From a virus, in the IMG/VR virus record IMGVR_UViG_3300045988_174111, positions 1 through 64,000 of that record: a DNA stretch of 64,000 nucleotides; one strand, 5' to 3'. Positions 27,901 through 44,353 of this stretch are shown here, one piece after another; within the stretch, counting starts at the first letter, position 1, and each line of letters opens with the position of its first letter. Position numbers and translations under genes: made by a program. The notes below the pieces were generated by a model. The model ran no database searches, was not told the DNA's origin, and saw only the letters and a list, made by a program, of their open reading frames with translations.

Positions 27901-28252
27901 CACAAAGAAGGAGATACATAATTTCCTCGAATACCTGAACTCTATCTATGTAAGTTGATGAACAATTATAGAATCTCGCATGCTTTTCTAACATTAATTC
28001 ACCACCGTACTGAAGTGCGCGTTGGGCTCCCAAAATTCGCTTGTCCAGATAGAAATTATATGCTTTTGTAAACAATGCTGAAAATTCAGGCTCATCCTCA
28101 GGTTTTATTTGCCCAGCATACCTTTTGAAGTGCATATCCATAACTCTGGCAACGGCATCCTCCCACTTCTCTTTCTCCCCATTGTGAGTTTGTGAATACT
28201 TACTCAAAAAGATATATTCACCAACAACTTTTCGACTGTCTTTTTCAATCAT
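24932..28252 (-). CDS. nrdJ: Ribonucleotide reductase catalytic subunit, probably class II (NrdJ-like), intein-containing
   Basis: After intein removal the extein carries the thiyl-radical loop YNP-CGEVGMF (NPCGE). Also GGVRRSA and a C-terminal Cys pair ACAGGSC. No ATP-cone and no NrdB nearby. Confidence 0.8.
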   Translation of the reverse strand: MIEKDSRKVVGEYIFLSKYSQTHNGEKEKWEDAVARVMDMHFKRYAGQIKPEDEPEFSALFTKAYNFYLDKRILGAQRALQYGGELMLEKHARFYNCSSTYIDRVQVFEEIMYLLLCGAGTGYSVQRVHTDKLPIPKGFSNVQQPEKFVIPDTIEGWAKAVGKLMTAYYYGGADIEFDYSEIRPKGAYIRGGFKAPGPEPLKLAIEKLHSILTKIKGRKLRPFELHYLICVCANSVVTGGVRRSAMISIFDADDAEMASCKTGNWISTMPELCRSNNSAAILPDTPKETFDSIFEFTKLYGEPGFVFIDKTDFVYNPCFTGETLVAVADGRNAVSIKELAENVKEFPVYSGKWVDKAGRNSKRWKPEIKKAIAFKTGDKEVVEVTLSDGTKFKCTPNHKLALKDGTYLEACKCVGKELQPFFTIKEKYRTICSRSNGYARQYRMIWEYFNGDVPFDIDHIENGKGDFIENLHLLERGEHQEKSASERLGENNPMFRRKDVKAYSHNMSISTTLEKNGRYKGLTNKELYEIAKKVHENGGYISCANCNKLDSRFPKNLSKNRFGGKIENLRNLVLSGQPYIEEVDEREYIKPEKESIEISVRVESVVACGVEPVYDLTVEDNHNFYIITKGDENYENCTGVLVHNCGEVGMFPQIKDEDGVTHSGWGFCNLAEINGGKVQSEQDFYDVCEAASVICTLQAGYTDFKVLEKWSKMIAERDALIGVGITGLCENPDILFNPDVQKRGAKIVVETNKKVARMIGINEAARCTVVKPSGNSSQLLGTLSGITPGHSRHYIRHIQAADTEQAIQEWEKVNPDMVEKSAWAPDREKVIAFPVTLPKGALLRKDLSAIEFLNYVLLTKQNWIEYGTNPDHPSTKENPTLRMNVSNTCTVKPDEWDDVREFLWNHRSQFGGISLLSSFGDLDYPQAPYTEVLDETELAQRYGAGAILSSGLIVDANDVFKDVWEACNAAMGLAPQLLDISDKQIAEFVVENIKDGHFLVDIDGVCFSDVNCVIDFLKRRAETRKDWIRRFNSFADKYMNGDKQKTSYCLKHVNAFHKWQAICRMKPVSYDNIVWEEPKLKEAGSEIATACAGGSCTWSPKNPNGN
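26321..27301 (-). mobile_element. Intein (327 aa) with HNH endonuclease domain, in the RNR NPCGE active-site loop
   Basis: Begins CFTGETLVAVADG, has block B TPNH, ends VLVHN followed by +1 Cys. HNH motif DIDHIENGKGDFIENLHLLERGEH. Confidence 0.9.
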
Positions 28253-32123: not shown

Positions 32124-34853
32124 CTATTTCTTTAAATGTTTTTGTAAAAATTTTCTTGCCAACAGCTCGTTTTCATTCAGCCCTTTATTCACGACCCCCG
32201 TAATAAGGCTTTTATCTTTAACGGTTTCCCTCATTTCTACATCTATTGTGTCGGGTGATAATAGGTAGGTGATATTTATACTATTCTTTTGCCCCATTCG
32301 TTCAAGACGACTGTTCGTTTGTTCCAAGTCCGTTGATTTGTCAGGCAACTCAATATAGAAGAGATTACTACAATTCTCCTGAAGACCGTCCGTACCTGTA
32401 CCAGCCGACTGAATGTTAGCGAAGAGCAAGCGATGTTTCTTCTCAGAAAACTCATTCACGATTTGTTGCTTCTTCTCTGATGAAACTCCACCCTGTATTA
32501 CAGGTGCTTTAAAGAACTTCGCCAGCTCCTGAAGCGGTTCACGGTGTACACCAAAGACCACCAACTGTTCGTCTTCATTCGCCTCTAACCAATCCTTGAT
32601 GTATGATTGTATGAACGGCAACTTCCCTTTCACCGACAGAGATTTCAGCGTATTAATCATCACAAGGTGTGGCGCGTTGACAGCATTGTTTGCTTTCTCA
32701 ATATCGATTTTTTCAAGATATGCTAATAAATCCGACTCGGCTCGCCTGTATTCTTTTAGATTCGTTATAGGGACATCAACTGTTTGCTCAACCAATGGTG
32801 GTAGCTCCTCAAGAACATCTCTTTTATTCCGTCGTATATAGCCACCCATCCGTAACAATTCATGAAGCTCCTCAAGGTTACTGAATCCGCTGTCGTCAAA
32901 TCCATAAACAGTTTGTTTTCCGTTGCAATATCTGAACTTGAATTCCAACGTATCACCAAAAATATCATCGAATCTTCTAATTATCTTGAAAGGCTGTATC
33001 AAGTCGGCTGGCTTATTCTGTGTCAGTGTACCTGTCAACCCCCACACATGCTGAATTCTCTTGGTTATCTTTTTAGCCATCTTTGTTCTCAAAGCCTTTT
33101 CAGACTTTAAGAAGTGTATTTCATCCAACGCACAAGACCCCCAATATTTCTTGAGTAGCTCCTTGAATTTTGCTGTGGGTTTTTCCATGTTACGTTCCCC
33201 GAGCACATCATAATTGATAACCACAACATCATTATTCCACACAGTTGGGTCAAACTTTCGCTTTCTTTCAATAACGCCTACTTTTCGGTCAGGCATCCAT
33301 TTTGCCCATTCCTTTTTCCAGTTATATTTCACAGATGCTGGGGTAACTATAAGAGCTGGAAACGCTGCCAATAATTCAATAAGAATAATTGTCTGGGCAG
33401 TATTATGAGTCACACAAAAATCATCACACAAATAAAGACCATCTTCATTCGACACCCTAATACACTGCATTTCTGCAAATCCCACAGGCTTAATTTCTAT
33501 AATTTTTCTCGTTGGAATATATTTTCGGGAAAAATTCAATCTATCGATTTTACGTTTCAGTTTAAATGGAATTATTTCTGGGGGGGGCATTATACTCAAC
33601 CTCCAAGAACGTTTGCATTCAATTATTTTCCCGTTCCTTTTGTATTTTCCAATCCGAACCCTTTCCCTACAAATTCCACCAAAACTTAAAACAAGCTGCT
33701 TGACATCTTCTTTTAATTGTTCTGAAGTCGAACTATAATTAATATGGCCACCCTTAGACACATAACCATCTGTATCCATTAACCCTCTAAGAATTTCAAG
33801 CCTTATTTCAGGAGTATTATACAAATAATCTTTTGGAATAAATTTATCATGAGAATGCGTTCCTAGCAGCCCATATTGCTTTAGCAGAAATTTCATAATG
33901 CTTCTTGAATTTTTGTTTTCAAGAACATTATCAATGTTTCCAATATGATAAGTAATATCATCGCTTGGCCTTTTATATATCATAGTTCCTTTTGGGAGAA
34001 TTAAATACTCAATAATTTCGTCGTCAATAGTTGTAAGCCCAACCCCATCAGAAATCCCCCCATCTCCTAATAAGCACCCTAATAAATAAGGGGAAATCGA
34101 AACATTTCTTTTAGAGTATTGGATTATACTTGTCATTGGAATTCGCCACCGATAAGATTTCTGACAAGAAGATAGATAAATATTTTCATTCATAATTTCC
34201 TTTAAAGAAAGTGTTTTAAAACCCTTTCCTCTTTTTACCCAATTATCCGTGGATACGTTCCATAAATGTTCTTCGCAACATCGAGTAAATGTTCCGTCTG
34301 AAAACTTAATTTGATACATCAATTTCCTACCTTGGGGGAATACTCCAATAACCTTTTGACTCTTTCCAGAAGGGCTTAAAATTTCATCACCGACCTTAAT
34401 ATCCCCCATGAATATAAACCCATCAGGCGTCAATATCTTTGTATCAAGAGGTTGCGCTTTTCCTAGCCCACAATCATCCCCATTGATACAGTTTCCATGA
34501 TTAATCATATAGGCAACCCCCTCGCACTGATAGGGACGAGGAATTCGCTTCATTCCTATCTCCTTACAGGCTTGCTCAACTTCATCGGCTGTTATCACCT
34601 CTTCGGGTTCCTCATAATCAATCACACGACGAGAGGGAACGTAGTTCATTCCCTCTTTGAATCCGTTCTCCTCAAGCCACTTCTTCAACGGATTCACCGT
34701 GACAAGGGAAAACGGTATGTACCACTCTTTATTTTGAGGATTCCAGCCTGCCCCAGCGAACTTCTTTACCGAAGTCACCAACGCAGGGTCGTAGGAAAAG
34801 CCAATGTACCACCAATCATGGTCTCTATACCAATATCTCATTTTCAAATTCAT
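32124..34853 (-). CDS. SNF2-family (SF2) helicase/translocase, intein-containing
   Basis: RPYQCEGV. The extein restores motif I DDCGLGK-TAQTI. Also DEIHFLK (DExH) and a helicase C-terminal domain (QSAGTGTDGLQ). Confidence 0.85.
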   Translation of the reverse strand: MNLKMRYWYRDHDWWYIGFSYDPALVTSVKKFAGAGWNPQNKEWYIPFSLVTVNPLKKWLEENGFKEGMNYVPSRRVIDYEEPEEVITADEVEQACKEIGMKRIPRPYQCEGVAYMINHGNCINGDDCGLGKAQPLDTKILTPDGFIFMGDIKVGDEILSPSGKSQKVIGVFPQGRKLMYQIKFSDGTFTRCCEEHLWNVSTDNWVKRGKGFKTLSLKEIMNENIYLSSCQKSYRWRIPMTSIIQYSKRNVSISPYLLGCLLGDGGISDGVGLTTIDDEIIEYLILPKGTMIYKRPSDDITYHIGNIDNVLENKNSRSIMKFLLKQYGLLGTHSHDKFIPKDYLYNTPEIRLEILRGLMDTDGYVSKGGHINYSSTSEQLKEDVKQLVLSFGGICRERVRIGKYKRNGKIIECKRSWRLSIMPPPEIIPFKLKRKIDRLNFSRKYIPTRKIIEIKPVGFAEMQCIRVSNEDGLYLCDDFCVTHNTAQTIILIELLAAFPALIVTPASVKYNWKKEWAKWMPDRKVGVIERKRKFDPTVWNNDVVVINYDVLGERNMEKPTAKFKELLKKYWGSCALDEIHFLKSEKALRTKMAKKITKRIQHVWGLTGTLTQNKPADLIQPFKIIRRFDDIFGDTLEFKFRYCNGKQTVYGFDDSGFSNLEELHELLRMGGYIRRNKRDVLEELPPLVEQTVDVPITNLKEYRRAESDLLAYLEKIDIEKANNAVNAPHLVMINTLKSLSVKGKLPFIQSYIKDWLEANEDEQLVVFGVHREPLQELAKFFKAPVIQGGVSSEKKQQIVNEFSEKKHRLLFANIQSAGTGTDGLQENCSNLFYIELPDKSTDLEQTNSRLERMGQKNSINITYLLSPDTIDVEMRETVKDKSLITGVVNKGLNENELLARKFLQKHLKK
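33402..34457 (-). mobile_element. Class 3-type intein (352 aa) with LAGLIDADG endonuclease, in SNF2 motif I
   Basis: Begins with Ala (AQPLDTKILTPDG) instead of Cys/Ser. Block B EEHLW (Trp), block F MQCIRV (Cys at the usual Asp position), and it ends VTHN followed by +1 Thr. LAGLIDADG blocks LLGCLLGDGG and ILRGLMDTDGY. Confidence 0.8.
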
Positions 34854-36765
34854 CTTTGGTAATTATTTTTATCCCCTTTTCCTTAGCTTTTTTCATCTTA
34901 GAGGAAGTGCTGTTGATATCTTTTACAATGAGTAAATTGCATTCTTTAGTGACACCGCTCAACACTTCATGCCCGTTCTCAATAAATTTATTTTCTAGTT
35001 CTTTGTCACGAAATCCTGTCATGCAAACAAATAACTTGTTTTTCGCAGAAGTTTTCTTTTCGGGGGTTTTCACGTAGGAAATCTTCGCTTCAAAATCATT
35101 GTGAAATTTTGCCAAACCGTCAATGAACGCTTTTGCAGTAACTTCACCCACCCCATATATCTGAACTAATTTCTTAACAGTAAGATTCTCAGCTGCCGAT
35201 TCATATAAATTCCTCTTGATTTTATCTTCCGTTTGTGAATCTAAATTATCAAGAATTAATTGACAAGTTTTTTCAGCAAGCTTTCCTTCAAAAACATTGT
35301 ACGCAGTCATGAGCCTTGCCAATGGAAGCCCTTCAGTGACAACTCTTTGAATTTCATTGTACACTTTAGAACCTTTCACATTTCCAAGATAATGCTGATA
35401 ATTTTCTTCCCAAGTTCTCACGTAATTAAAAACGCAAGACCACCCTGCATCGTACAGAGTTCTAATAGTCGGCTCTTCAAACCCCTCACAGCCAACTGTC
35501 TTGAAGAAATATACAAGATTGGAAATCTGTCTTTCCTTACAAATCAAATTCGGGCAAAACAAATTAACATGATTTTCATCCCATTTCATTGGGACCCCAC
35601 AAGACGGACAGAAAATCATATCATCCATCATTTGTTCGTATTCACCTTCATCGTAGCTAATTGTATCTAAATGCTTAGGAATGACATCTCCGGAACGGGT
35701 TATCTCTATCAATGCCCCTTTACAGATGTGATTATCTACTAAGTATGCCGCATTGTACGCTGTTGCTCTTGATACTGTTGCACCGTCCATTTCAACTGGC
35801 TCTATTAAAATAACAGGATTCAACGCCCCTGTCTTCCCTATGCCATATTCTATCCCCAAAACCTTGGTCTGGTACGTATCAACCCACTCCGGCCTCTTAT
35901 ACGCTATTGAATAGGCTGGGTTTCCGTTAGGAAGCCTTCCAAGACGATTTCTAACATCAAATTCATTTACTTCAATAACAATTCCATCAATCTTGTATTC
36001 ACCATTCAATTCTGGATATACCTCTTCATTGAACAGGGTTTCAATTTCTTCATTACTCAATTCCAACAATTCTGTAATAGGGAATAAAAAGTAATTTGCT
36101 TTATTTCCGCAAAGAGTGTCTAATTGAGTGTCCTTATTAAGCTTATCTTCAACACTCGTTCCGTACTGAACGAAATCAACCTTATTAATATAAATATTCT
36201 TATGTCCTTCCGGAGAATTGAATATCCCAGCAACCATGTTGCGAGCATTTTTATATGAAAAATCTTTCACGGATTCTTTAAGTTCCTGAAAGTTTTTCTT
36301 AGACATAATGGCTTCGCCCCATACGTATTCAAATCCAACAGAAAATTTTGGTTCCATTTTTTTAAAGTGAATGTCACTTCTTTGCCCTTCGTACCCGTCG
36401 CCACGTGTCCACACTTTACTGCCTTTGCTTACGAGCAAACTTATTCCGTCAAATTTAGGGGTAACGATAATTTCTTTGCAACCGCTTACTGCCATTTTTT
36501 CAAGCCATTTACGCAAATCTTTGACGACCTTAACTTTTTCCAAACTGAACATGGGCATAGGAAGCTTCTCCATTCTATCAGTGGCTTCTTCAACCACGCC
36601 CTTCTTAAAGAATTCATCATCGGGACTAAGCTTCCGCAGACTTTCTTCCATACTGTCATACTCTGAATCTGACACCTGAGGATTCCCCTCACGATAAGCC
36701 TTATTCAGTTCTTTCAGTTTTCTTCTGAGTTCATTGATTTTTTTAAGATTTGTTGCTTTTTTCAT
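34825..36765 (-). CDS. ligA: NAD-dependent DNA ligase
   Basis: Adenylation motif TPKFDGISL (KxDG). Zn finger CPSCG...CPNLIC. HhH region. C-terminal BRCT (LFVCMTGFRD...LLIVKD). Confidence 0.9.
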   Translation of the reverse strand: MKKATNLKKINELRRKLKELNKAYREGNPQVSDSEYDSMEESLRKLSPDDEFFKKGVVEEATDRMEKLPMPMFSLEKVKVVKDLRKWLEKMAVSGCKEIIVTPKFDGISLLVSKGSKVWTRGDGYEGQRSDIHFKKMEPKFSVGFEYVWGEAIMSKKNFQELKESVKDFSYKNARNMVAGIFNSPEGHKNIYINKVDFVQYGTSVEDKLNKDTQLDTLCGNKANYFLFPITELLELSNEEIETLFNEEVYPELNGEYKIDGIVIEVNEFDVRNRLGRLPNGNPAYSIAYKRPEWVDTYQTKVLGIEYGIGKTGALNPVILIEPVEMDGATVSRATAYNAAYLVDNHICKGALIEITRSGDVIPKHLDTISYDEGEYEQMMDDMIFCPSCGVPMKWDENHVNLFCPNLICKERQISNLVYFFKTVGCEGFEEPTIRTLYDAGWSCVFNYVRTWEENYQHYLGNVKGSKVYNEIQRVVTEGLPLARLMTAYNVFEGKLAEKTCQLILDNLDSQTEDKIKRNLYESAAENLTVKKLVQIYGVGEVTAKAFIDGLAKFHNDFEAKISYVKTPEKKTSAKNKLFVCMTGFRDKELENKFIENGHEVLSGVTKECNLLIVKDINSTSSKMKKAKEKGIKIITKDEFENEILV

Positions 36766-36776
36766 GATAAATTATT

Positions 36777-37019
36777 TTAGTTTTGTTCTTTCTTGCAATT
36801 AGTAATTACTGTCACAATTTTTCTACCAGTTTTAAATGTATGGACACTGTATAACAGGTTTTCTTCTTCTTCGTCCCATACCCAATACATAGATGATTGA
36901 TTGTTGTACTTCATCAAGTTTTTGCCTTGAGTTCTAGCCATACGAGCAGCCTCTCTTGCTGAAGTTGTTTCTACTGTATAAGTATCACCACCATTGAATT
37001 GAATATTGAACCGTTTCAT
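36777..37019 (-). CDS. Hypothetical protein
   Basis: 80-aa ORF 24 nt downstream of a consensus promoter. Confidence 0.55.
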   Translation of the reverse strand: MKRFNIQFNGGDTYTVETTSAREAARMARTQGKNLMKYNNQSSMYWVWDEEEENLLYSVHTFKTGRKIVTVITNCKKEQN

Positions 37020-37042: not shown

Positions 37043-37073
37043 CAAAAATAGTGGAATCTAATGATATTCCAAA
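37043..37073 (-). promoter_or_regulatory. Bacteroidota-type promoter (TTTG-N19-TATTTTTG)
   Basis: -7 at 37043-37050, -33 at 37070-37073. Confidence 0.7.
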
Positions 37074-37091: not shown

Positions 37092-37322
37092 TCAATATTT
37101 TTCAAATTCTTCCGCGGTAAGGGTTAAACAGCCCACCCACGCATTGGTTTCACTTGCTGTATATGCTTCCATGCGTTCTATAATTTTACCACCTTTAGAC
37201 TTCACCCGTAACTTTGGATACTTCGTGAAGTCATAAGCAACTTCCTCAACTTCATCTACAAGAAATAGAGGCTGGTCTGTTTGTAATGCTTTATAAACTT
37301 CTTCCCTTGATAATCTTTTCAT
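37092..37322 (-). CDS. Hypothetical protein, third gene of the SAH/SAS operon
   Basis: 76-aa ORF with ATGA overlap with the upstream gene. Confidence 0.55.
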   Translation of the reverse strand: MKRLSREEVYKALQTDQPLFLVDEVEEVAYDFTKYPKLRVKSKGGKIIERMEAYTASETNAWVGCLTLTAEEFEKY

Positions 37323-38017
37323 AACTTAATATTTCTTATTTCCTTGTAATACTTTTCACTTTCCTCGATAAGAACTATTGCCTCACCACTTGTTTTTGGC
37401 AACACACGTATTCTTTCGTAAATTTCATGTCCGCGTCCAGGAGCTACTCCTGACCTCCTACATTTTTCAAACAGTTCTTCTCCCAACAAAGTTTTCGAAA
37501 TTTCGGGTTTTTCCTTTCCAAAAATCATTTGAGGGGTGTTCACCTGTATTTCACCAATAAGGCCATTGCTGAACTCTATATTCAAAATATGACCCGAATA
37601 TCCCGCAAAATTTTCAGGCGTTTGAACCTTATGTCTGACAACCTTGAATTCACCCTTTAACTCAAAAAGAATTTCATCCAATTTAGAAGCCTCTACGATA
37701 AAAGTGTTTCGAATTAAATCCTTTAGCTTTGAAACAGAAGTTCCTTCCAATGCAACCTTTCGTTGAACACTGTCAACCGATTTAAGATTAACAGGTGTTA
37801 CCCGTATTCCAAACCTATTTGCAAAATCATAGGAATTTTTCTGAAAATTGGTTATATTCGGAATCACTTTTGACTTGAAATAATTCTTAATCTCAGTAAC
37901 TTCATCAACTTTTTGAACCCCGTATCTTTGCCCAACACGGTGTTTACGACGGTTTTCAGGCGTGTCTTTATACACGCCTGAACGAGACTTCAAAATTTGT
38001 AATTCAATTAAGTTCAT
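37319..38017 (-). CDS. RelA/SpoT-family nucleotide pyrophosphokinase-like protein (small alarmone synthetase-like; possible toxSAS)
   Basis: Synthetase-domain motifs by eye: NLKSVDSVQRK (RxKxxxSxxxK-like), KDLIRNTFIV, AGYSGHILNIEF (GYxxxH), GEIQVNTPQM (EIQIRT-like), HEIYER. Confidence 0.55.
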   Translation of the reverse strand: MNLIELQILKSRSGVYKDTPENRRKHRVGQRYGVQKVDEVTEIKNYFKSKVIPNITNFQKNSYDFANRFGIRVTPVNLKSVDSVQRKVALEGTSVSKLKDLIRNTFIVEASKLDEILFELKGEFKVVRHKVQTPENFAGYSGHILNIEFSNGLIGEIQVNTPQMIFGKEKPEISKTLLGEELFEKCRRSGVAPGRGHEIYERIRVLPKTSGEAIVLIEESEKYYKEIRNIKL

Positions 38018-38426
38018 AGTTTAAAATTGAAAGCGCATTAGAGTATTTCTCAAGATTATACACTTTTCCTCTATTTGGGTCAGTATTGTCAGCAATATCA
38101 TACTTCTTAACATTAATTGCCAAACAGTTTTTACTATCCCTAATTTTTCTAACATAATCAAAATAAGGAACGCTTTTATCATGATTTAATAACTCCAATG
38201 CTTGAATGATACATTCATTATTTGTCACTTCCCGTTTTATATCCTCAACAGTATAATGAGTATCCTCAAGAACATCATGTAGCAACGCAACCACCTTTTC
38301 ATCATCTGTTGATGCTCTGTAAGACACTCTAACAGGGTGGAGGAAATACTGTACACCGCTCTTGTCAACTTGCCCCTCATGGGCTTTTTGAGCGAACTGT
38401 AATGCTTTATAAACTTCTTTTTTCAT
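38004..38426 (-). CDS. HD-domain small alarmone hydrolase (SpoT/Mesh1-like)
   Basis: ALQFAQKAHEGQVDKSGVQYFLHPVRV...VVALLHDVLEDT is the classic HD_4 (p)ppGpp-hydrolase signature. Confidence 0.75.
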   Translation of the reverse strand: MKKEVYKALQFAQKAHEGQVDKSGVQYFLHPVRVSYRASTDDEKVVALLHDVLEDTHYTVEDIKREVTNNECIIQALELLNHDKSVPYFDYVRKIRDSKNCLAINVKKYDIADNTDPNRGKVYNLEKYSNALSILNYELN

Positions 38427-38448
38427 ACACTTGTTTTATTTGACGCTA

Positions 38449-38479
38449 CAAATGTAGTCAAAGAAATTAGAAGAACAAA
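38449..38479 (-). promoter_or_regulatory. Bacteroidota-type promoter (TTTG-N19-TACATTTG)
   Basis: -7 at 38449-38456, -33 at 38476-38479, 23 nt upstream of the SAH ATG. Confidence 0.7.
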
Positions 38480-38527: not shown

Positions 38528-39142
38528 TTACTCTTCCATCATGTTATGGTATAGGTCAAGGCGAATTTTCGCATAAGCTGCTTCGACATTTGTAAATGCC
38601 CTTTGATTGTTTGCACCCTGTTCATTGTATATTTCGGATTCAATAACTTTTGCAACCTGCTCAACCCATTTTGGATTTGTATAAGAAGACAATTTTTTGC
38701 CATGGTAGGAAAAACAGTCGAATTTTGAATTTCGGTCTTCATGAAGATTTGTTAAAAGCTGCCGGATTTTCTTTGCTGTGGCTTCTTTGTCCGAAATATG
38801 ATTCTCTTCCCGAACCTTCTTAATTATCCGGCAAACCCTTTCAATTGCAAGGTCGAAAGCCATATTAGTAACAGTTTTAATTCGTAGCTGCGTTTCCGGA
38901 ACTAGGCTCTCGGATATAGCACTAAGCTGGATATTTTGATTCCTCGTTTCTGTCAGTAGTTCCTTGAAAGTTTCTCGCTGGGAATTCATGGTGTCGTTTA
39001 TCACCTTCATGAACCAACGAAAAAACGTTACCCACATCAATGCGGACAAAACTAAGAAAAATCCGGCTGTAATAGCCAACATACCAAAGTCTCCAATACT
39101 CTTACCAGTTTCCAGAGCTGGATTGATTACATCTGTATTCAT
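38528..39142 (-). CDS. Membrane-anchored hypothetical protein
   Basis: N-terminal transmembrane helix FGMLAITAGFFLVLSALMWVTFF. Confidence 0.6.
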   Translation of the reverse strand: MNTDVINPALETGKSIGDFGMLAITAGFFLVLSALMWVTFFRWFMKVINDTMNSQRETFKELLTETRNQNIQLSAISESLVPETQLRIKTVTNMAFDLAIERVCRIIKKVREENHISDKEATAKKIRQLLTNLHEDRNSKFDCFSYHGKKLSSYTNPKWVEQVAKVIESEIYNEQGANNQRAFTNVEAAYAKIRLDLYHNMMEE

Positions 39143-39871: not shown

Positions 39872-40365
39872 AGATAATGCCTCCTTCCATATTCAGCGAT
39901 TAATAAACTGTCAGTCAAGTTGTCATCGGCTTTCGTGCAGTTCTCCGTCCGACGTAAATCCTGTCGGGGGAACAACCGCTTCGCTGCAAGCACTGACATC
40001 ACTTTCTTGTCGGGGTTCGGCTTGATGCCCTCGTACATTTCTTTTTGCCACTTCTTAGGAGTCACCAGAACAATTCTCAAACCACACATGATGAACCCCA
40101 TGCGGAGCGCATAACATACTCCCCCGAAAGTGAACGTAGCACCCGCAGCGGAACGTGGTAGAGCGTGAACATCCTCTATCACGACAACCGTGTTATTGAT
40201 GTCACACTCCTCCGATATCTGAATAATCAATTCTGACAGTTCATGCAGGTCAAGTTCCTTCCCTACCTTTGGCATCGGATAGTGCTTGATACCTGTACTT
40301 TTCATCACCGTGATGAACCCCTGTTTTCCTGGGTCTACTCCGATAACTGTTTGCTTCTTTTCCAT
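39868..40365 (-). CDS. ruvC: RuvC-like Holliday-junction resolvase
   Basis: VIGVDPGKQG, VVVIEDV, DNLTDSLLIAEY. These are the RNase H-fold acidic residues in the phage RuvC pattern. Confidence 0.75.
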   Translation of the reverse strand: MEKKQTVIGVDPGKQGFITVMKSTGIKHYPMPKVGKELDLHELSELIIQISEECDINNTVVVIEDVHALPRSAAGATFTFGGVCYALRMGFIMCGLRIVLVTPKKWQKEMYEGIKPNPDKKVMSVLAAKRLFPRQDLRRTENCTKADDNLTDSLLIAEYGRRHYL

Positions 40366-40366
40366 A

Positions 40367-42367
40367 CTATTCTATATAACTGTAACCGTTTTCCTTCACA
40401 ACGGTGAGAGTGGTTACACCAGCACGAATATTCATGACGTGGCTGATTACATACACAGGATGATGAACATCGCTCATTGACTCAAGTAGAAGAGCCAAGC
40501 CCAACGGGTCTGTCCCCTCAAGAACCTCATCAATCATTAGGAAGTGAAGTCCTCCCCATTGGTTCGTTCCGTTAATCATTTCCTGAAATGCTTGTATCAA
40601 AGCCATTTCAATTCTTGCTCTCTCACCTCCGCTAAACGACCAGAATGATTTATATTCGCCCTCGCCATTGATGACCGATACAGTTATCTCCTCTTTGATT
40701 TTCCCTTTCGCATTACGTTTGAACCCGTCTATTGATAGGCGAAGTTCTGAACGCTGCTTCTGTAAGGACATATTCGCGAAGTTCTGAATTATCCGTAACT
40801 GCTCACAGGCGAGGCTCATCTTGAACTCCTTGAAACGCAATCCCCACTGTACCATGTCTGATACCTGTTTCTCGCACTCTCCGTATTCCTTGTTTGCCTT
40901 TTCGAGTTTCTTTTTCGTCAGGGCAACAAGACCTTCCAGTTCGGCTTCCTTGGTTTCCATTTCAGCCTGTTCAGCCTTTTCAAGATGTTCAACCAACTGT
41001 TCGCTCTCACTGTTACAACGTGATTGAATCCCTTCTTGATGCTTGATATCTTCTTGGTAGGAGGATATCATTTGGTTGCTTCGGGTTATCTCCCCACGGA
41101 TTTTTGTTATCTCCGCTTGAACCTCACGAATGGCTCTAACTGTACCCTGTTCCTGAACACGTATCTTCATGAACTTGTCGTCGTACTTCTTCACTCGTTC
41201 CTCGAATGAGTTAAGTTCTTCCAACGCTGTTTTCGCAAGGTTTTCCTGGGTCTCGGCTTCCTTCTTCTGGCTTTCAATTTTCTTCCGAGTAGTAGGAACA
41301 TCAACCGTTTCATCTGATGTCACGAACTCCGTTCCACACTTCGGACACTTTACAGTTCCTTTCAAGATAGCCGTGAGGCGGTTGGCTTCGGCAGTGTACT
41401 GTGAGGACAGTTCCTGTGCTGCTTTACGCTTCTTCCTCGCTGCCTCTACCTTTGTATCGGTCGAAGAACGTTCTTTCGTTAGAGAGTCATATTGAGCCTT
41501 ATAGTCAATCGCTTCTAATCCCTCTAACTTCTTAGAGGCTTCAGCGACTTTCTTCTGGTTGTCCTTGATACTCTGTTCAGCCAACTTGATAGCCGTCCGG
41601 GAATTCTCAATCTTCTTTTCCGCTCCGTCGTACTCCTGTATGACAGCGTCAATTCGTTCGTTTATACGCTCTATAAGCGATTGTCGTTCCTCCTCAAGAT
41701 TACGTTCTCGCTCCTCAGCCAACTGTGTCTCATAGACGCCCAATTCACCCTCTATCTTCTGAACCTTTCCCAAGGCAACAGCCTTCTTCTCTTCCAACGG
41801 CTTAATCTTCTCTTTGATTACGCTGTCAGAGTCGTCTAACTGTTCAGCCTTAATGAAGCGGTTTATCAACGACAGTTTGTCGGAGTTGGATGACGAAACG
41901 AATGACTTGAAATTCTCCTTGTTAAGGATATAAAAACTCTTCAGGTCTTCCGAGGATATACCTATCCAGTTCAAGATGTAAGCGTTTCCGTCATTGACGG
42001 TTGCTACCTGTACCGAACCCTCTTCCTCATTAATCATGAGTTCCAATGACGCTGAACCTTTCTGTCTCAGGGTTCTATGTATATTCAGCGTTTCTTTCCG
42101 TATCGGGCAGTAGATGTCAAGCCAGATGTCCGCCTCTTCTTCACCCCACAGGATTAAGTCCCTGTCAAGTGTTTGTTTCTTGAGCGAGTTAGCAAGGATT
42201 GCATACGCAATCCCTGCTTCCATCGTACTCTTCCCTGCTCCGTTCGTTTCCTTTGACTCTATCTCCGTCAGGTTCTTTCCCTTGATTAAGACAGGCTCAT
42301 TCACGAACTTATGTTTCAGTTCCTTGAATGACAGGAAATTCTTCAAACGCAAATAGGTGAGTTCCAT
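40367..42367 (-). CDS. sbcC: SbcC/Rad50-like SMC ATPase
   Basis: Walker A NGAGKST. Long coiled coil with CPKCG zinc hook. Signature FSGGERARIEMAL. Walker B LMIDEV. Confidence 0.85.
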   Translation of the reverse strand: MELTYLRLKNFLSFKELKHKFVNEPVLIKGKNLTEIESKETNGAGKSTMEAGIAYAILANSLKKQTLDRDLILWGEEEADIWLDIYCPIRKETLNIHRTLRQKGSASLELMINEEEGSVQVATVNDGNAYILNWIGISSEDLKSFYILNKENFKSFVSSSNSDKLSLINRFIKAEQLDDSDSVIKEKIKPLEEKKAVALGKVQKIEGELGVYETQLAEERERNLEEERQSLIERINERIDAVIQEYDGAEKKIENSRTAIKLAEQSIKDNQKKVAEASKKLEGLEAIDYKAQYDSLTKERSSTDTKVEAARKKRKAAQELSSQYTAEANRLTAILKGTVKCPKCGTEFVTSDETVDVPTTRKKIESQKKEAETQENLAKTALEELNSFEERVKKYDDKFMKIRVQEQGTVRAIREVQAEITKIRGEITRSNQMISSYQEDIKHQEGIQSRCNSESEQLVEHLEKAEQAEMETKEAELEGLVALTKKKLEKANKEYGECEKQVSDMVQWGLRFKEFKMSLACEQLRIIQNFANMSLQKQRSELRLSIDGFKRNAKGKIKEEITVSVINGEGEYKSFWSFSGGERARIEMALIQAFQEMINGTNQWGGLHFLMIDEVLEGTDPLGLALLLESMSDVHHPVYVISHVMNIRAGVTTLTVVKENGYSYIE

Positions 42368-42368
42368 A

Positions 42369-43331
42369 CTAAATTGTTTTCATGATTTGTTCTTCGATTT
42401 CTTCCGCAAGGTCAATGTCGCTTGAGATTATCTCACGAGCCTTTTCTTGACCCTGTGCCAGCGTCTTTCCTTTGTATTTAAAGAACGAGCCAGCCTTTTC
42501 AATGATTCCCCGTTCAACTCCTACGAGTAACAGTTCCGAAGCCTTATCAATTCCCTCACCGAAGCGAATGTCGAACTCGGCTTTCCTGAACGGAGGCGCA
42601 ACCTTATTCTTCTCAACTTTCACCTTGATGTGGTTAGCGGTTTCTTCGCCACGGTCTCCAACTGTACCCGACTTCGCAATGTCCAACACCTGCGAAGAGT
42701 AGAAGCCAAGAGCCTTTCCTCCTGGAGTAGTCTTCGGTGAACCGTACACCACGCCAATCTTGTCACGATACTGATTGATGAAGATTACCAACTGTTGGTT
42801 CAGTTTAATGTCACCAATCAATCCGGGAAGCCACGTAGCCATAAGCCGAGCCAGCACGCCCATCTTAGCATCACCCACATCGGCTTCCAAATAACATTTA
42901 GGGAACATTGCCGCCACCGAGTCCATCACGATTGCTCCGATTGCTTTCGACTTAACAGCCTCTCTCATGATTTCGAAACATTCTTCCGCAACTCCTGGTT
43001 GGCACAGAATAAACATCTCCGGAGATATGTTCACCCCCAGTGCTTCTACATAATCCATGTCAATTGCGTTCTCACGGTCTATGTAGAGAACCGCTTTGCC
43101 CGTCTGTTCCTGTATGTTCTTACAGGCTGTCAGAGCCAACGTAGTCTTTCCTGAAGACTCGTAGCCACGCAATTCAATGATACGACCCATCGCATAACCG
43201 CCACCAAGTGCCAAGTCGAGCGACAGGCTTCCTGACGATACGAACTCTACTCCTTGAGTATTGTTTCCCGCCACAACTTCTTTGCCGAACTTCTTTTGTA
43301 GGGAGTTCACCAAATCTTCTACTCCTGCCAT
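42369..43331 (-). CDS. recA: RecA recombinase
   Basis: SGSLSLDLALGGGYAMGRIIELRGYESSGKTTLAL, VMDSVAAM, NQYRDKIGVVYGSPKTTPGGKALGFY. Confidence 0.9.
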   Translation of the reverse strand: MAGVEDLVNSLQKKFGKEVVAGNNTQGVEFVSSGSLSLDLALGGGYAMGRIIELRGYESSGKTTLALTACKNIQEQTGKAVLYIDRENAIDMDYVEALGVNISPEMFILCQPGVAEECFEIMREAVKSKAIGAIVMDSVAAMFPKCYLEADVGDAKMGVLARLMATWLPGLIGDIKLNQQLVIFINQYRDKIGVVYGSPKTTPGGKALGFYSSQVLDIAKSGTVGDRGEETANHIKVKVEKNKVAPPFRKAEFDIRFGEGIDKASELLLVGVERGIIEKAGSFFKYKGKTLAQGQEKAREIISSDIDLAEEIEEQIMKTI

Positions 43332-44353
43332 TGCATTACTTCTTTTAATAGTTTATATCCTTCATCATATTCGTAGCCTTTTTCATCGCAAAATGCTTTG
43401 AACTTTTCGGCTATATCTGTTCCGGACAGTTCCTGAACCACTTCGGCTTCCTCAGCCTCCGTGACTTCAACGTCCGTGTACTTTGCTTTCACCGAGATAC
43501 CGTGTTCGGTGAAGACTTTTTTGTTGACAGCCTTAACAGCCTGTTGGTCTCCCACAAGCGTTATCCGAACGTTGATGCCATCTGTGTTCGTTTTAGCGAG
43601 TTTTAATATCTCTTCCTTTGAGGTCTTAAGGACATCAACTTTTATTTCCTTATACGGAACGAATTGAGCCTTTACGAACTCGAAGGACGTATCGCTGTAC
43701 AATACCGTAAATCCCTTCTCCTCATCTTCCCCGAAGTTATTCTGACGGGTACTCGGTAGGTGAAACACGTTGGCTCCTGGTTGCTGAGCGTCATGATAGT
43801 GTCCCAGCATGACCTTTCCGTACTTCGAGAACAGTTTCAACGGAATCTTGTTATTCACGACCTTCCCATCATTATTGATAGAACCCTGTACGGCTGTATG
43901 GCTGAACAGGATTGATATCTTACTCTTCGGAGTAGGTAGTTCAGCGAACTTCTCCAACCATACGTCTTGTGCGTAGAATGGTAAGAAGTGGCATTCAACC
44001 CCTTTCAGGTCTATACACGTAGGAACTTCAAAAAGATTGAAGCCTGGATGATATTTATATGATGTCAAAAAACTTTCGTCAGACTCATAATCAGTTTTAT
44101 CGTGATTCCCAGGAATACAAATCAAAGTAATTTCATTTTCATTGTACAATTCTATCATTTCCGTCAAACACGAAAGAAGTTCCTGTCTTTGACTTAATCT
44201 CGAATCAAATATATCCCCCAGCCATATCACAATGTCAACGCCTTTTTCTTTTGCCAAAGCTATTTCCTGCTCGGCAATATTCATAAGCTCAACTGCATTT
44301 GATTCTTGTAAATGCTTATCCGTACTTATTATTGCGATAGGTTCTTTTCCCAT
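43319..44353 (-). CDS. sbcD: SbcD/Mre11-like nuclease
   Basis: Calcineurin-like motifs STDKH, LGDIFD, GNHD, GHYH. Start taken at MGKEPIAII (ATG 44351-44353), because the track extension covers the upstream terminator hairpin. Confidence 0.8.
   Translation of the reverse strand: MGKEPIAIISTDKHLQESNAVELMNIAEQEIALAKEKGVDIVIWLGDIFDSRLSQRQELLSCLTEMIELYNENEITLICIPGNHDKTDYESDESFLTSYKYHPGFNLFEVPTCIDLKGVECHFLPFYAQDVWLEKFAELPTPKSKISILFSHTAVQGSINNDGKVVNNKIPLKLFSKYGKVMLGHYHDAQQPGANVFHLPSTRQNNFGEDEEKGFTVLYSDTSFEFVKAQFVPYKEIKVDVLKTSKEEILKLAKTNTDGINVRITLVGDQQAVKAVNKKVFTEHGISVKAKYTDVEVTEAEEAEVVQELSGTDIAEKFKAFCDEKGYEYDEGYKLLKEVMQWQE

What the first reader, a model, noticed from the sequence alone, without database searches (positions are those of the whole stretch)
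37092..38479. Overlapping alarmone-hydrolase / RelA-SpoT-like synthetase gene pair with toxSAS toxin-antitoxin architecture
One consensus promoter (38449-38479) drives three overlapping genes:
- A 140-aa HD-domain protein with the classic (p)ppGpp-hydrolase signature (HEGQ..K.G..Y..HP...LLHDVLEDT).
- After a 14-nt overlap, a 232-aa protein with RelA/SpoT synthetase-like motifs (KSVDSVQRK, GYSGH, GEIQVNT, HEIYER).
- After an ATGA overlap, a 76-aa ORF.

Established knowledge: toxSAS toxins (FaRel/PhRel/CapRel-type) make toxic alarmones or pyrophosphorylate tRNA. They are neutralised by adjacent antitoxins, including SAH-type hydrolases, and phage-borne examples mediate exclusion. Inference: this may be a phage or episome addiction or superinfection-exclusion module, or a device to rewire host stringent signalling or degrade immune signalling nucleotides. 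The synthetase-like protein is divergent (Asn replaces Arg in two motifs), so its substrate may be non-canonical.
Basis: partly seen in the sequence, partly recalled or inferred. Interest (0 to 1): 0.75.

Follow-up and report, generated by a model that had tools for sequence, protein, structure and literature searches.

The report
Phage (p)ppApp toxin with two antidotes
An uncultured gut phage carries a three-gene cassette for an ATP-consuming (p)ppApp-making toxin, a protein that probably blocks it and an enzyme that probably destroys its product; the system is known, but here the toxin carries a previously undescribed 33-residue N-terminal tag that related phages also attach to three other toxin types.

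Summary
The three overlapping ORFs and the promoter are real.

- **Toxin (232 aa).** It is not a FaRel/PhRel/CapRel toxSAS. It is a Tas1/Apk-type (p)ppApp synthetase: PDB 6OX6_A, sequence E 4e-22, fold TM 0.85.
- **HD protein.** It is closest to Aph1, the (p)ppApp-specific hydrolase (7SMG, E 3e-24). It keeps 5 of 6 specificity-signature residues exactly, including D24 and R119.
- **76-aa ORF.** Its model's top hit among 350,542 PDB chains is Tis1, the Tas1 immunity protein.

The locus is therefore the known "toxin plus binding immunity plus hydrolase immunity" system of Apk2 prophages.

New points:
- The toxin has neither MuF nor PAAR. It has a 33-aa N-terminal module under purifying selection.
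- More than 100 proteins of related about 100-kb gut phages share this module. Most are encoded beside the portal gene.
- Elsewhere the module is fused to Zeta toxin, Papain-fold glutamine deamidase and an ART-like domain.
- The cassette sits in a variable toxin island between a 204-aa gene and DNA ligase, a slot that is empty in 16 close relatives.

I infer, without direct evidence, that the module delivers or packages these toxins into virions.

The parts
38449..38479 (-). Bacteroidota-type promoter (TTTG, 19 nt, TAcaTTTG) about 22 nt upstream of the HD start codon. It drives the three-gene cassette.
   Evidence: Sequence read. The motif class is enriched: 13 found against 1.9 expected, all on the minus strand. 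A similar motif precedes each neighbouring gene unit in the junction alignment.
38004..38426 (-). Aph1-like (p)ppApp 3'-pyrophosphohydrolase, 140 aa, HD domain. Enzymatic immunity protein.
   Evidence: 7SMG '(p)ppApp hydrolase': E 3.3e-24, 44% identity over 124 aligned residues. Rel/SpoT hydrolase domains reach only about 1e-10 and match only the N-terminal half. Signature mapping: D24 to D21, R96 to K94, D116 to D116, R119 to R119, K133 to K127, Y134 to Y128. The HD dyad is H50-D51. phrog_990 matches at 4e-32.
37319..38017 (-). Apk/Tas1-like (p)ppApp synthetase toxin, 232 aa. Its start overlaps the HD stop by 14 nt.
   Evidence: Tas1 6OX6_A: phmmer E 3.9e-22. Foldseek E 8.4e-13, TM 0.85, RMSD 2.2 A over 190 columns. 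27 of 29 family-conserved residues are kept.
37919..38017 (-). N-terminal module (aa 1-33, MNLIELQILKSRSGVYKDTPENRRKHRVGQRYG), the constant region shared with other phage toxins and with proteins encoded next to the portal gene.
   Evidence: Shared at 64-86% identity with more than 100 proteins. All 18 residues invariant across 110 proteins are kept. Against the same-type paralog there are 12 synonymous and 9 non-synonymous codon changes, only 3 of the latter within K10-G33. pLDDT is about 40 in the AF2 model.
37322..37906 (-). Tas1-like catalytic domain (aa 38-232) with syn motifs K79/K87, D100-R103-T105, G139-Y140-G142, E156-Q158-N160 and H197-Y200-E201.
   Evidence: pLDDT 85-97. Fold match to Tas1. 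Motif conservation.
37092..37322 (-). Tis1-like small immunity protein, 76 aa. Its start overlaps the toxin stop (ATGA).
   Evidence: AF2 pLDDT 84.7. Foldseek top PDB hit is 6OX6_B (Tis1): TM 0.61/0.61, RMSD 2.3 A, prob 1.00; the next hit has TM 0.36. Ten clusters are conserved at 68-89% identity. Analogous 82- and 88-aa ORFs follow Apk genes in L086, L113 and L069.
37043..37073 (-). Next Bacteroidota-type promoter, for the 80-aa gene. It marks the downstream edge of the cassette.
   Evidence: This region aligns with the 'empty-site' loci, so homology to cassette-free relatives resumes at the 76-aa stop codon.
38528..39142 (-). Conserved 204-aa gene (phrog_19698), the upstream anchor of the variable slot.
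34825..37019 (-). 80-aa gene (36777-37019) and NAD-dependent DNA ligase (34825-36765), the downstream anchors of the slot.

Best explanation
The locus is a self-contained, promoter-equipped accessory cassette of an uncultured human-gut phage of about 107 kb. The host is probably Bacteroidota. The cassette encodes a (p)ppApp toxin with two immunity proteins.

**Biochemical mechanism** (inferred from characterized homologs; nothing was assayed here).
- The 232-aa protein uses ATP as pyrophosphate donor to pyrophosphorylate the 3'-OH of ATP or ADP. This makes pppApp or ppApp and drains the adenylate pool.
- The 76-aa Tis1-like protein binds the toxin and occludes its active site.
- The 140-aa Aph1-like HD enzyme hydrolyses (p)ppApp back to ATP or ADP.
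- Overlapping stop and start codons couple translation, so the toxin is never made without its antidotes.

**Biological role** (a further inference with lower confidence, about 0.4).
- The toxin's 33-aa N-terminal module is the constant 'delivery' part of a phage polymorphic-toxin family, playing the role that MuF plays in Apk2 and PAAR in Tas1.
- It probably tethers cargo to the virion head or portal, so that the toxin is injected into the next cell.
- The immunity proteins would protect the producing cell and would switch the injected toxin off once the genome is expressed.
For: **Identity of the three proteins.**
- Toxin against Tas1: sequence E 3.9e-22; fold TM 0.85; 27 of 29 family-conserved residues kept.
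- HD against Aph1: E 3.3e-24, with 5 of 6 signature residues identical and 1 conservative. Both residues shown experimentally to set specificity (D24, R119) are present.
- 76-aa model against Tis1: top PDB hit.
- The same three-protein logic was demonstrated experimentally for Apk2/BcTis1/Aph1 and Apk2/IapK/Aph1 (PMC10083569 and PMC12226406).
- All three genes are under purifying selection.
- The cassette is present or absent as a unit: present in the window, L001 and L005/L006, absent from 16 close relatives.
- The toxin-then-Tis1-like pair with an ATGA overlap recurs in L086 and L113. L069 has the same toxin-then-small-ORF order but with a 67-nt gap. The HD gene lies either upstream or downstream.

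**Delivery inference.**
- The N-module is conserved at protein level.
- It is fused to Zeta_toxin (92 and 110 bits) and to Gln_amidase/Papain fold toxin 1 (42-59 bits). One protein has an ART-like C-terminus, judged by eye.
- Small ORFs follow these toxin genes.
- Most N-module genes lie two genes upstream of the portal, in a block that also holds the head maturation protease and the MCP.
- The literature shows Apk1-like domains are routinely attached to delivery domains, and this module is not among those listed.
Against: - No biochemical activity was or can be measured here.
- Pfam RelA_SpoT is below threshold.
- The Tis1 fold match has a weak E-value (0.03) and 17% identity. It rests on a 10-sequence alignment, and two of the five AF2 models were poor.
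- The 76-aa protein has no detectable sequence similarity to any PDB chain or to the pneumococcal 69-aa ORF at the IapK position.
- Aph1 R96 is replaced by K94.
- For delivery, there is no virion proteomics and no structural or sequence precedent for the module.
- The window's toxin gene lies in the replication/repair region, not the head block.
- The HD gene persists in relatives that lack Apk (L080, L084), so it may have a role beyond cognate immunity.
Confidence: 0.8

Rival explanations
1. It is a toxSAS toxin-antitoxin module in the sense of Jimmy et al. 2020 (FaRel/ATfaRel-like). It would serve plasmid-like addiction, abortive infection or superinfection exclusion inside the cell that carries it. 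The SAH would be a type-IV-like antitoxin and the small ORF a type-II antitoxin.
For: - The architecture is similar: an RSH toxin beside an alarmone hydrolase.
- FaRel also makes (pp)pApp, and its antitoxin is an SAH that degrades it.
- The cassette is accessory and mobile.
Against: - The toxin is far closer to Tas1 than to any toxSAS structure (CapRel TM 0.41-0.42).
- The hydrolase is Aph1-type, (p)ppApp-specific by signature, not the promiscuous ATfaRel type.
- It sits in a large phage that encodes its own replication machinery, where addiction makes little sense.
- A conserved N-terminal module shared with three other toxin classes is a polymorphic-toxin feature, not a TA feature.
Confidence: 0.1
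2. The enzyme pair acts only inside the infected cell as a regulated (p)ppApp circuit for host takeover. It would transiently shut down purine synthesis and ATP-dependent processes or reprogramme transcription. There would be no packaging, and the N-module would be a regulatory, localisation or recombination handle.
For: - The cassette lies among early/middle replication and repair genes and has a host-type promoter.
- Synthetase and hydrolase are co-expressed.
- Iyer et al. 2017 proposed alarmone-like shut-down by phage RelA/SpoT domains.
Against: - Co-translation of a stoichiometric active-site blocker with the toxin argues for silencing in the producer cell rather than regulated use.
- The same N-module carries Zeta toxin and a glutamine deamidase with their own small downstream ORFs. 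That pattern fits weapons with immunity rather than metabolic regulators.
- Most N-module genes are in the head block.
Confidence: 0.25
3. The 232-aa protein is a tRNA 3'-CCA pyrophosphokinase (CapRel/PhRel2/FaRel2-like) or a (p)ppGpp synthetase, and the HD protein is a (p)ppGpp hydrolase. Together they would rewire the host stringent response.
For: - It has an RSH synthetase fold.
- HD_4 and spoT_relA profile hits cover the N-terminal half of the HD protein.
- An exported SAS that makes both alarmones is the fourth-ranked structural hit.
Against: - Tas1 is the best sequence and fold match by orders of magnitude.
- Syn2 (RNT) and syn4 (EIQVNT) follow Tas1 and not the RSH consensus.
- The partner hydrolase carries the Aph1 signature, including D24 and R119. 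Mutating these broadens Aph1 to (p)ppGpp.
- Characterized Apk2 domains make (p)ppApp exclusively.
Confidence: 0.05
4. The HD hydrolase is primarily a stand-alone protective or counter-defence factor. It would detoxify (p)ppApp made by T6SS Tas1-like effectors, host toxSAS systems or toxins injected by competing phages. Its linkage to the synthetase here would be secondary. This does not exclude the main explanation.
For: - Homologs of the HD protein occur in 371 phage records, while the synthetase occurs in only one.
- The HD gene is retained next to the ligase in relatives whose slot holds a Zeta toxin or no second toxin (L079-L081, L084).
- It also occurs in a Bacteroides MAG contig next to a truncated N-module stub.
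- Hydrolase immunity proteins are interchangeable between systems.
Against: - In the window and in L001 the HD gene is translationally coupled to the toxin and shares its promoter.
- In the window's immediate clade the HD gene is gained and lost together with the toxin.
Confidence: 0.2

Closest known systems
Apk2-Tis1/IapK-Aph1 three-gene systems of temperate phages (Bacteroides caccae BACCAC_01148-01146; S. pneumoniae SPNA45-type prophages; Mannheimia and Pasteurella prophages). Sources: PMC10083569, PMC12226406.
   Same: - A Tas1-like (p)ppApp synthetase domain.
- A small non-enzymatic immunity protein immediately downstream of the toxin.
- An Aph1-family HD hydrolase of about 140 aa.
- All phage-encoded.
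- The pneumococcal phage V22 locus (portal, MuF toxin of 527 aa, 69-aa ORF, 137-aa HD) was inspected.
   Different: - There is no MuF domain. The toxin is 232 aa with a 33-aa N-module instead.
- The gene order is hydrolase, toxin, Tis1-like rather than toxin, Tis1, hydrolase.
- The locus lies between repair genes and the DNA ligase, not beside the portal.
- The phage is about 107 kb with its own polymerase, RNR and GroEL.
- The N-module is almost absent from species-representative bacterial genomes (1 hit), whereas MuF toxins are described as specific to temperate phages.
- The toxin domain is closer to Tas1 (E 4e-22) than to pneumococcal Apk2 (BLASTP E 0.002).
Tas1 (Apk1)-Tis1, the type VI secretion effector-immunity pair of Pseudomonas aeruginosa PA14 (PDB 6OX6).
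   Same: It is the best sequence and structure match for both the toxin domain (TM 0.85, 32% identity) and the small protein (TM 0.61; both chains are 76 residues). Syn2 RNT and syn4 EIQVN are shared.
   Different: - There is no PAAR domain and no T6SS context.
- It is phage-borne.
- It has an additional hydrolase immunity protein.
- Tis1-like similarity is detectable only at fold level (17% identity).
toxSAS toxin-antitoxin modules (FaRel-ATfaRel, PhRel, CapRel; PMC7229694, PMC11782079).
   Same: - An RSH-fold toxin with an adjacent neutraliser.
- FaRel makes (pp)pApp and is neutralised by an SAH-type hydrolase.
- Some members are phage-borne.
   Different: - It is structurally much further away (CapRel TM 0.41-0.42).
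- It is three-component.
- It carries a constant N-terminal module shared with unrelated toxins.
- It has no toxSAS-type antitoxin domains.
MuF polymorphic toxins and phage polyvalent proteins (Jamet 2017, PMC5576092; Iyer 2017, PMC5512222); T4 Alt as the prototype of a packaged, injected enzyme.
   Same: - A constant N-terminal part is joined to interchangeable toxin domains (RelA_SpoT, ART, peptidase/deamidase, Zeta-like kinase).
- Small immunity ORFs lie downstream.
- The genes are associated with the portal and head gene block.
   Different: - The constant part is a 33-aa peptide with no similarity to MuF, portal, DdrB-ParB or any Pfam, PHROG or PDB entry.
- The toxins are single-domain proteins, not polyvalent giants.
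- A second toxin island lies outside the structural module.

Membership tests
Apk / Tas1-like (p)ppApp synthetases (RSH synthetase fold) | RelA/SpoT-type synthetase (Pol-beta NTase) fold | tested here: met
   Foldseek returned 41 PDB hits at E <= 1e-3, all RSH synthetase domains. Tas1 was first, with TM 0.85.
Apk / Tas1-like (p)ppApp synthetases (RSH synthetase fold) | Closer to Tas1/Apk than to (p)ppGpp synthetases or tRNA-modifying toxSAS | tested here: met
   The phmmer search against PDB found only Tas1 (E 3.9e-22) and no other RSH. Foldseek E was 8e-13 for Tas1 against 6e-6 or worse for the rest. The domain family has 603 representative clusters.
Apk / Tas1-like (p)ppApp synthetases (RSH synthetase fold) | Conserved syn1-syn5 catalytic and substrate motifs in their Apk-type variants (syn2 R-x-T, syn4 E-I-Q-V-N) | tested here: met
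   27 of 29 positions conserved in at least 85% of 144 homologs are retained, including K79, K87, D100, R103, T105, Y140, E156, Q158, N160, H197 and Y200. In syn3, Tas1 has G-V-N and the window has G-H-I with N146 two residues later, a minor deviation.
Apk / Tas1-like (p)ppApp synthetases (RSH synthetase fold) | Synthesises (p)ppApp from ATP and is toxic when expressed alone | not testable with these tools
   Needs expression and HPLC or LC-MS.
Pfam RelA_SpoT (PF04607) | Score at or above the gathering threshold (27 bits) | tested here: not met
   The window protein scores 13.8 bits, E 0.07. Relatives score 18.6 and 25.9 bits. The Pfam model under-detects this branch.
Apk1 subfamily (T6SS effectors) | N-terminal PAAR/Rhs delivery domain | tested here: not met
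   No Pfam hit. The N-terminus is the 33-aa module.
Apk2 subfamily (MuF polymorphic toxins) | N-terminal MuF (Phage_Mu_F/SPP1 gp7) domain, with the gene next to the portal | tested here: not met
   There is no MuF domain. The phrog_7625 'head morphogenesis' hit covers only profile positions 308-491, which is the toxin part. The gene lies between a 204-aa gene and the DNA ligase.
Aph1 family ((p)ppApp-specific hydrolases) | HD-domain fold with the catalytic H...HD...D residues | tested here: met
   H30, H50-D51, D55 and D110 align to Aph1 H33, H53-D54, D58 and D110. HD_4 scores 27.8 bits against a cut-off of 27.2.
Aph1 family ((p)ppApp-specific hydrolases) | Molecular signature D24, R96, D116, R119, K133, Y134 (PMC10083569) | tested here: met
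   D21, D116, R119, K127 and Y128 are identical. R96 is replaced by K94, a conservative change.
Aph1 family ((p)ppApp-specific hydrolases) | Compact single-domain protein of about 143 aa lacking the extra C-terminal helices of (p)ppGpp SAHs | tested here: met
   The protein is 140 aa and aligns end to end with the 149-residue 7SMG chain. This was judged by length and alignment only; no structure was predicted.
Aph1 family ((p)ppApp-specific hydrolases) | Hydrolyses (p)ppApp but not (p)ppGpp | not testable with these tools
   Needs an enzyme assay.
Tis1-like structural immunity proteins | Tis1 fold | tested here: met
   The top PDB hit is 6OX6_B: TM 0.61/0.61, RMSD 2.3 A over 60 columns, prob 1.00, E 0.03. 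The runner-up has TM 0.36. The model has pLDDT 84.7.
Tis1-like structural immunity proteins | Detectable sequence homology to Tis1, BcTis1 or IapK | tested here: not met
   There is no PDB sequence hit at E <= 10. There is no similarity to the pneumococcal 69-aa ORF. BcTis1 itself was not available for comparison.
Tis1-like structural immunity proteins | Encoded immediately downstream of the toxin and co-inherited with it | tested here: met
   ATGA overlap in the window, L001, L086 and L113. L069 has the same toxin-then-small-ORF order but with a gap and no overlap.
Tis1-like structural immunity proteins | Binds the toxin and blocks the acceptor site | not testable with these tools
   No multimer prediction or binding assay was available.
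toxSAS TA modules (FaRel, FaRel2, PhRel, PhRel2, CapRel) | Toxin belongs to one of the toxSAS SAS subfamilies | tested here: not met
   CapRel structures rank 6th or lower, with TM 0.41-0.42. No phylogeny with FaRel or PhRel sequences was run.
Phage polymorphic toxins (as a kind) | A constant N-terminal region joined to alternative C-terminal toxin domains, each with cognate downstream immunity ORFs, in hypervariable loci | tested here: met
   The N-module is joined to Apk, Zeta_toxin, Gln_amidase and an ART-like domain. Small ORFs follow. The slot is empty in 16 loci and filled in at least four different ways. That the small ORFs act as immunity proteins is inferred.

The most novel reading that the evidence does not exclude
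The 33-aa N-terminal peptide (consensus L-x-E-x4-KSRSGVYxDTxENRRxHRVGQxYG) is a previously undescribed virion-packaging and ejection tag. It would define a new family of phage-injected polymorphic toxins in large, probably non-temperate Bacteroidota phages of the human gut.

- Cargoes include a (p)ppApp synthetase, a Zeta toxin, a glutamine deamidase and an ART-like domain.
- The toxins would be injected with the DNA to paralyse the new host or to sabotage competing phages.
- The linked and orphan immunity genes would protect the producer cell and cells already infected by kin.
- In that case the HD and Tis1-like genes would be weapons-control elements in phage-phage warfare rather than a TA module.
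Probability: 0.35. Interest if true: 0.8.

Novelty: new variant of a known kind. Interest (0 to 1): 0.62.

Why it matters
The biochemical system (Apk toxin, Tis1-type blocker, Aph1 hydrolase) was described in 2019-2025. For MuF toxins the open question is what phage-borne (p)ppApp toxins are for, and whether they are packaged and injected (PMC10083569 discussion).

This locus shows the same toxin recruited by a different, very short constant module. Unrelated toxin classes share that module, in large gut phages that carry their own replication machinery. It therefore gives:
- an independent second system in which to test virion delivery;
- a 33-residue candidate tag that could be tested by reporter fusions;
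- evidence that toxin/immunity cassette swapping, including orphan hydrolase immunity, occurs inside abundant human-gut Bacteroidota phages.

It also shows that Pfam RelA_SpoT misses this branch, so such toxins are under-annotated in viromes.

Tried and rejected
**Searches that found nothing.**
- Megablast of the locus against 50,697 annotated phages: no match.
- tblastn of the P0072-type protein and of the bare N-module against the same set: no match.
- Pfam and PHROG scans of P0072-type proteins: nothing.
- PDB sequence searches with the 76-aa ORF, the N-module profile and P0072: nothing meaningful.
- Direct comparison of the 76-aa ORF with the pneumococcal 69-aa ORF at the IapK position: no similarity.

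**Ideas dropped.**
- I first suspected a crAss-like phage because of the BACON and Rep3_N genes and the roughly 100-kb contigs. The portal is closest to Chryseobacterium and B. thetaiotaomicron DAC myovirus-type phages, and more distantly to SPO1-like phages, so I dropped that idea.
- A sigma-70 promoter reading was rejected: the scan was not enriched and the site was not listed. The Bacteroidota motif fits better.
- A recent DNA-level copy of the N-module was rejected because differences from the paralog are mostly synonymous.

**Technical failures.**
- My last large protein search, with an N-module profile, returned only 38-77-aa stubs and added little. An earlier attempt failed on the length limit.
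- A `mafft --keeplength` mapping clipped the ends and was redone on extracted domains.
- One Pfam scan exceeded the residue limit and was repeated on 90 sequences.
- The Tas1 Nature paper is not held. Tas1 residue roles are therefore taken from alignments and later papers, not from that source.

**Not tested.**
- Whether the phage is temperate (no integrase search was run).
- No phylogeny with FaRel or PhRel sequences.
- No complex prediction.


Full report
**1. Observation**

The minus strand of 37092-38479 holds three overlapping ORFs, exactly as described:
- 140 aa at 38004-38426.
- 232 aa at 37319-38017, overlapping the first by 14 nt.
- 76 aa at 37092-37322, with an ATGA overlap.

They are genuine genes. 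A copy 66-80% identical, in a separate metagenomic contig (L001), keeps the same order and the same kind of overlaps. Pairwise dN/dS is 0.09, 0.09 and 0.12 (dS is saturated). The 76-aa protein has ten database clusters at 68-89% identity with 39 invariant columns.

From my own knowledge this is the Bacteroidota -33/-7 consensus. The pattern TTTG-N19-21-TAnnTTTG occurs 13 times in the window against 1.9 +/- 1.3 in shuffles, always on the coding strand. One of these sites (37043-37073) lies in front of the next gene. A sigma-70 scan was not enriched.

**2. What the three proteins are**

*Profile libraries.* These are only weakly informative.
- HD_4 scores 27.8 bits against a cut-off of 27.2.
- RelA_SpoT scores 13.8 bits against 27.
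- NCBIfam finds only the N-terminal half of the HD protein in spoT_relA models.

*The 232-aa protein.*
- Residues 66-228 match Tas1 (6OX6_A) at E 3.9e-22. No other RSH protein is found by sequence.
- The AlphaFold model (pLDDT 85-97 for residues 38-232) superposes on the Tas1 toxin domain with TM 0.85 and RMSD 2.2 A over 190 columns (E 8e-13).
- Rel, SAS1, RelP, CapRel and an exported SAS follow at TM 0.4-0.57.
- An exhaustive search finds 603 representative clusters with this domain.
- The window protein keeps 27 of the 29 positions that are at least 85% conserved across 144 of these homologs. The 27 include syn1 K79/K87, syn2 D100-R103-T105, syn3 G139-Y140-G142, syn4 E156-Q158-N160 and syn5 H197-Y200-E201.
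Tas1 has RNT and EIQVNS, and N160 is present in 88% of the family.

*The HD protein.*
- It matches 7SMG, deposited as '(p)ppApp hydrolase' (Aph1 of Bacteroides caccae), at E 3.3e-24 over its whole length, with 44% identity. Rel/SpoT hydrolase domains reach about 1e-10 and only over the first 65-85 residues.
- The published Aph1 specificity signature is D24, R96, D116, R119, K133, Y134 (PMC10083569). It maps to D21, K94, D116, R119, K127, Y128.
- D24 and R119, whose mutation lets Aph1 hydrolyse (p)ppGpp, are both present.

*The 76-aa protein.*
- It has no sequence match in the PDB.
- Its model (pLDDT 84.7, pTM 0.75) returns Tis1, the Tas1 immunity protein (6OX6_B, also 76 residues), as the top hit among 350,542 chains: TM 0.61/0.61, RMSD 2.3 A, prob 1.00, E 0.03. 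The next hit has TM 0.36.
- Small ORFs of 82 and 88 aa follow Apk-like genes in two other phage lineages. They share the pattern LFLVDE..E[VI]A...K.KG.K..E...[LI]T.EE[FY]E.[YF].

**3. Relation to known systems**

This is the three-protein logic shown experimentally for Apk2/BcTis1/Aph1 in a B. caccae prophage and for Apk2/IapK/Aph1 in pneumococcal, Mannheimia and Pasteurella prophages (PMC10083569, PMC12226406):
- a (p)ppApp synthetase toxin;
- a binding immunity protein that occludes the acceptor site;
- a hydrolase immunity protein that regenerates ATP or ADP.

I inspected a pneumococcal example, phage V22: portal, 527-aa MuF toxin, 69-aa ORF, 137-aa HD protein.

**4. Genomic setting**

*The phage.*
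- The window is almost uniformly transcribed on one strand, at about 37% GC.
- It encodes a DNA polymerase, RNR, GroEL, helicases, a ligase, SbcCD-like proteins and a terminase.
- It matches no annotated phage by megablast.
- The toxin protein is 100% identical, and flanking proteins 92-99% identical, to those of the 107.8-kb IMG/VR contig UViG_3300045988_070094.
- The portal of this phage group is closest to Chryseobacterium phage MA9V-3 and B. thetaiotaomicron DAC phages, at 33-34% identity.
- BACON-domain genes, the promoter type and a single hit in an 'uncultured Bacteroides sp.' MAG point to a Bacteroidota host.

*The cassette is accessory.*
- In 16 close relatives (204-aa neighbour 87-89% identical) the 204-aa gene is followed after about 140 bp by the 80-aa gene and the ligase.
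- The trio is present only in the window's near-identical genomes and in L001.
- Homology to the empty sites resumes at the stop codon of the 76-aa gene, and the cassette brings its own promoter copy.

**5.

*What it is.*
- Residues 1-33 (MNLIELQILKSRSGVYKDTPENRRKHRVGQRYG) are modelled with low confidence (pLDDT about 40).
- They are shared at 64-86% identity with more than 100 proteins of 200-405 aa, many from contigs of about 100-110 kb, whose remaining sequence is unrelated.
- Eighteen positions are invariant across 110 such proteins, and all are kept here.
- Against the paralog type found in the same genome, the module's DNA is only 70% identical. There are 12 synonymous and 9 non-synonymous codon differences, only 3 of the latter within K10-G33. 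The peptide, not the DNA, is being conserved.

*Where the other copies sit.* Most N-module genes lie two genes upstream of the portal, in a block that also holds the head maturation protease (phrog_1028, E 5e-40) and the MCP.

*What else it is fused to.* A survey of 70 viral loci shows the same module joined to:
- Zeta_toxin (PF06414; 92 and 110 bits against a cut-off of 22);
- Papain fold toxin 1 / glutamine deamidase (PF15644; 42-59 bits against 24; also 6 of 110 proteins);
- a second, diverged Apk (242 aa);
- a 724-aa protein whose C-terminus shows an R...S-x-S...E-x-E pattern typical of ADP-ribosyltransferases. This was judged by eye only, with no Pfam hit.

*The slot is a toxin island.*
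- A sister clade carries [N-module-deamidase + 78-aa ORF].
- This is followed by [N-module-Apk + 82-aa Tis1-like ORF], or [N-module-Zeta], or nothing.
- An Aph1-like HD gene then follows in every case, and then the ligase.
- L121 has N-module-Zeta alone.
- The toxin-then-Tis1-like pair with an ATGA overlap is invariant within this phage group, while the HD gene may lie before or after it.
- The HD gene persists where Apk is absent, as orphan immunity genes do in polymorphic-toxin loci.

*Precedent.* The module has no match in Pfam, PHROGs, PDB sequences or 50,697 annotated phages. It is not among the delivery domains catalogued on Apk1 homologs, which are Sec, LXG, XopAD, MuF, DUF4157 and PAAR (PMC12691689). 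None of the top 147 Apk-domain representatives carries it.

**6. Mechanism**

*Shown.* Homology, fold, motif retention, gene coupling, the cassette's presence or absence as a unit, and modular fusion of the N-module.

*Inferred from characterized homologs.*
- The toxin converts ATP, with ATP or ADP as acceptor, to (p)ppApp and depletes adenylates.
- The 76-aa protein blocks the active site.
- The HD enzyme reverses the product.

*Inferred from architecture and synteny only (about 0.35-0.4).*
- The N-module tethers cargo to the head or portal for co-injection, as proposed for MuF toxins and known for T4 Alt.
- The immunity genes would protect the producing cell and silence the injected toxin after early gene expression.
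- The orphan HD would protect against toxins from related phages.

*Alternatives.* These are a purely intracellular takeover circuit, a TA-like exclusion module, or the HD acting mainly as a general (p)ppApp detoxifier. They are scored among the rival explanations.

**7. Novelty and verdict**

- The enzyme trio is a member of a known kind. A 204-aa gut-virome homolog is even auto-labelled 'Tas1' in UniProt, and the exact protein is present there without a name.
- The new elements are the short constant module replacing MuF or PAAR, its use with four toxin classes, the second toxin island outside the head block, the hydrolase-first order, and the setting in large gut phages with their own replication machinery.
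- I rate this a new variant of a known kind, with moderate-to-high interest. It gives a second, compact system for testing whether phage (p)ppApp toxins are injected weapons.

Noticed in passing
window 3358-46240, minus strand (13 sites: 3358, 4117, 7325, 9961, 11987, 13139, 16009, 19555, 20010, 28760, 37043, 38449, 46210): There are 13 exact matches to the Bacteroidota-type promoter TTTG-N19-21-TAnnTTTG, against about 2 expected. Many share an extended consensus (TTTGnAnnnTCAnnnGAAnCCACTAnnTTTG). This looks like a phage-specific early or middle promoter class read by host RNA polymerase.
   Followed up: partly
window 46816-51282 (-), 24932-28252 (-), 28674-31178 (-): The 1488-aa DNA polymerase, the 1106-aa ribonucleotide reductase and the 834-aa helicase each match their PHROG family over only part of their length. 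They also show stray hits to terminase, RNR and helicase profiles, which suggests intein or homing-endonuclease insertions. A related genome has an intein-like 669-aa gene next to the portal.
   Followed up: no
window 23241-24899 (-): The phage encodes a GroEL-like chaperonin of 552 aa (phrog_5725, E 1.6e-144).
   Followed up: no
L079-L081, L084 (sister-clade loci, HD gene just upstream of the ligase): The Aph1-like HD gene is retained where the neighbouring toxin is a Zeta toxin or where there is no second toxin at all. It behaves like an orphan immunity gene.
   Followed up: partly
L140 3561-4530 (CAUEFX010000003.1, uncultured Bacteroides sp. MAG): This is the only N-module hit in 185,579 species-representative genomes. 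It holds an HD gene closely resembling the window's, then a 60-aa truncated N-module stub, then an 87-aa ORF resembling the small ORF downstream of the deamidase toxins. It looks like a degenerate toxin/immunity remnant. Whether the contig is a prophage or a mis-binned phage was not resolved.
   Followed up: partly
N-terminus of all N-module proteins (window 38003-38017; alignment A2): L3 (at least 90%) and E5 (invariant) form an L-x-E motif at residues 3-5. This resembles the (L/I)-x-E cleavage sites of T4-type prohead proteases (from my own knowledge). The phage group encodes a head maturation protease. Possible processing was not tested.
   Followed up: no
L075 1921-5175: Two adjacent N-module-like genes. 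One is a degenerate 341-aa copy (MNLSEFNILKSWSEDGHYADNPRNRKRG...). The other is a 724-aa protein with an ART-like C-terminus (YRR...SFGSYA...FEQEFL) and no obvious downstream immunity ORF.
   Followed up: no
L069 4890-6298 (MT835636.1, human faecal phage scaffold): A different gut phage carries a free-standing 204-aa Apk-like gene, an 88-aa Tis1-like ORF and a 157-aa Aph1-like HD gene, in the canonical order and without MuF or the N-module. A 204-aa gut-virome protein of similar identity to the window toxin is labelled 'Tas1' in UniProt/BFVD (A0A8S5TA31); whether it is this gene was not checked.
   Followed up: partly
window 10001-14000 and 40001-44000: Two segments have markedly higher GC (0.43-0.46) than the rest of the window (0.34-0.40). 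The second covers the SbcC-like gene and its neighbours.
   Followed up: no
(annotated phage collection): Homologs of the HD protein occur in 371 phage records, including 126 Pseudomonas phages (for example Pakpunavirus) and pneumococcal prophages, while the synthetase occurs in one. Stand-alone Aph-like hydrolases in lytic phages are widespread, and the literature treats their substrate as unresolved.
   Followed up: no
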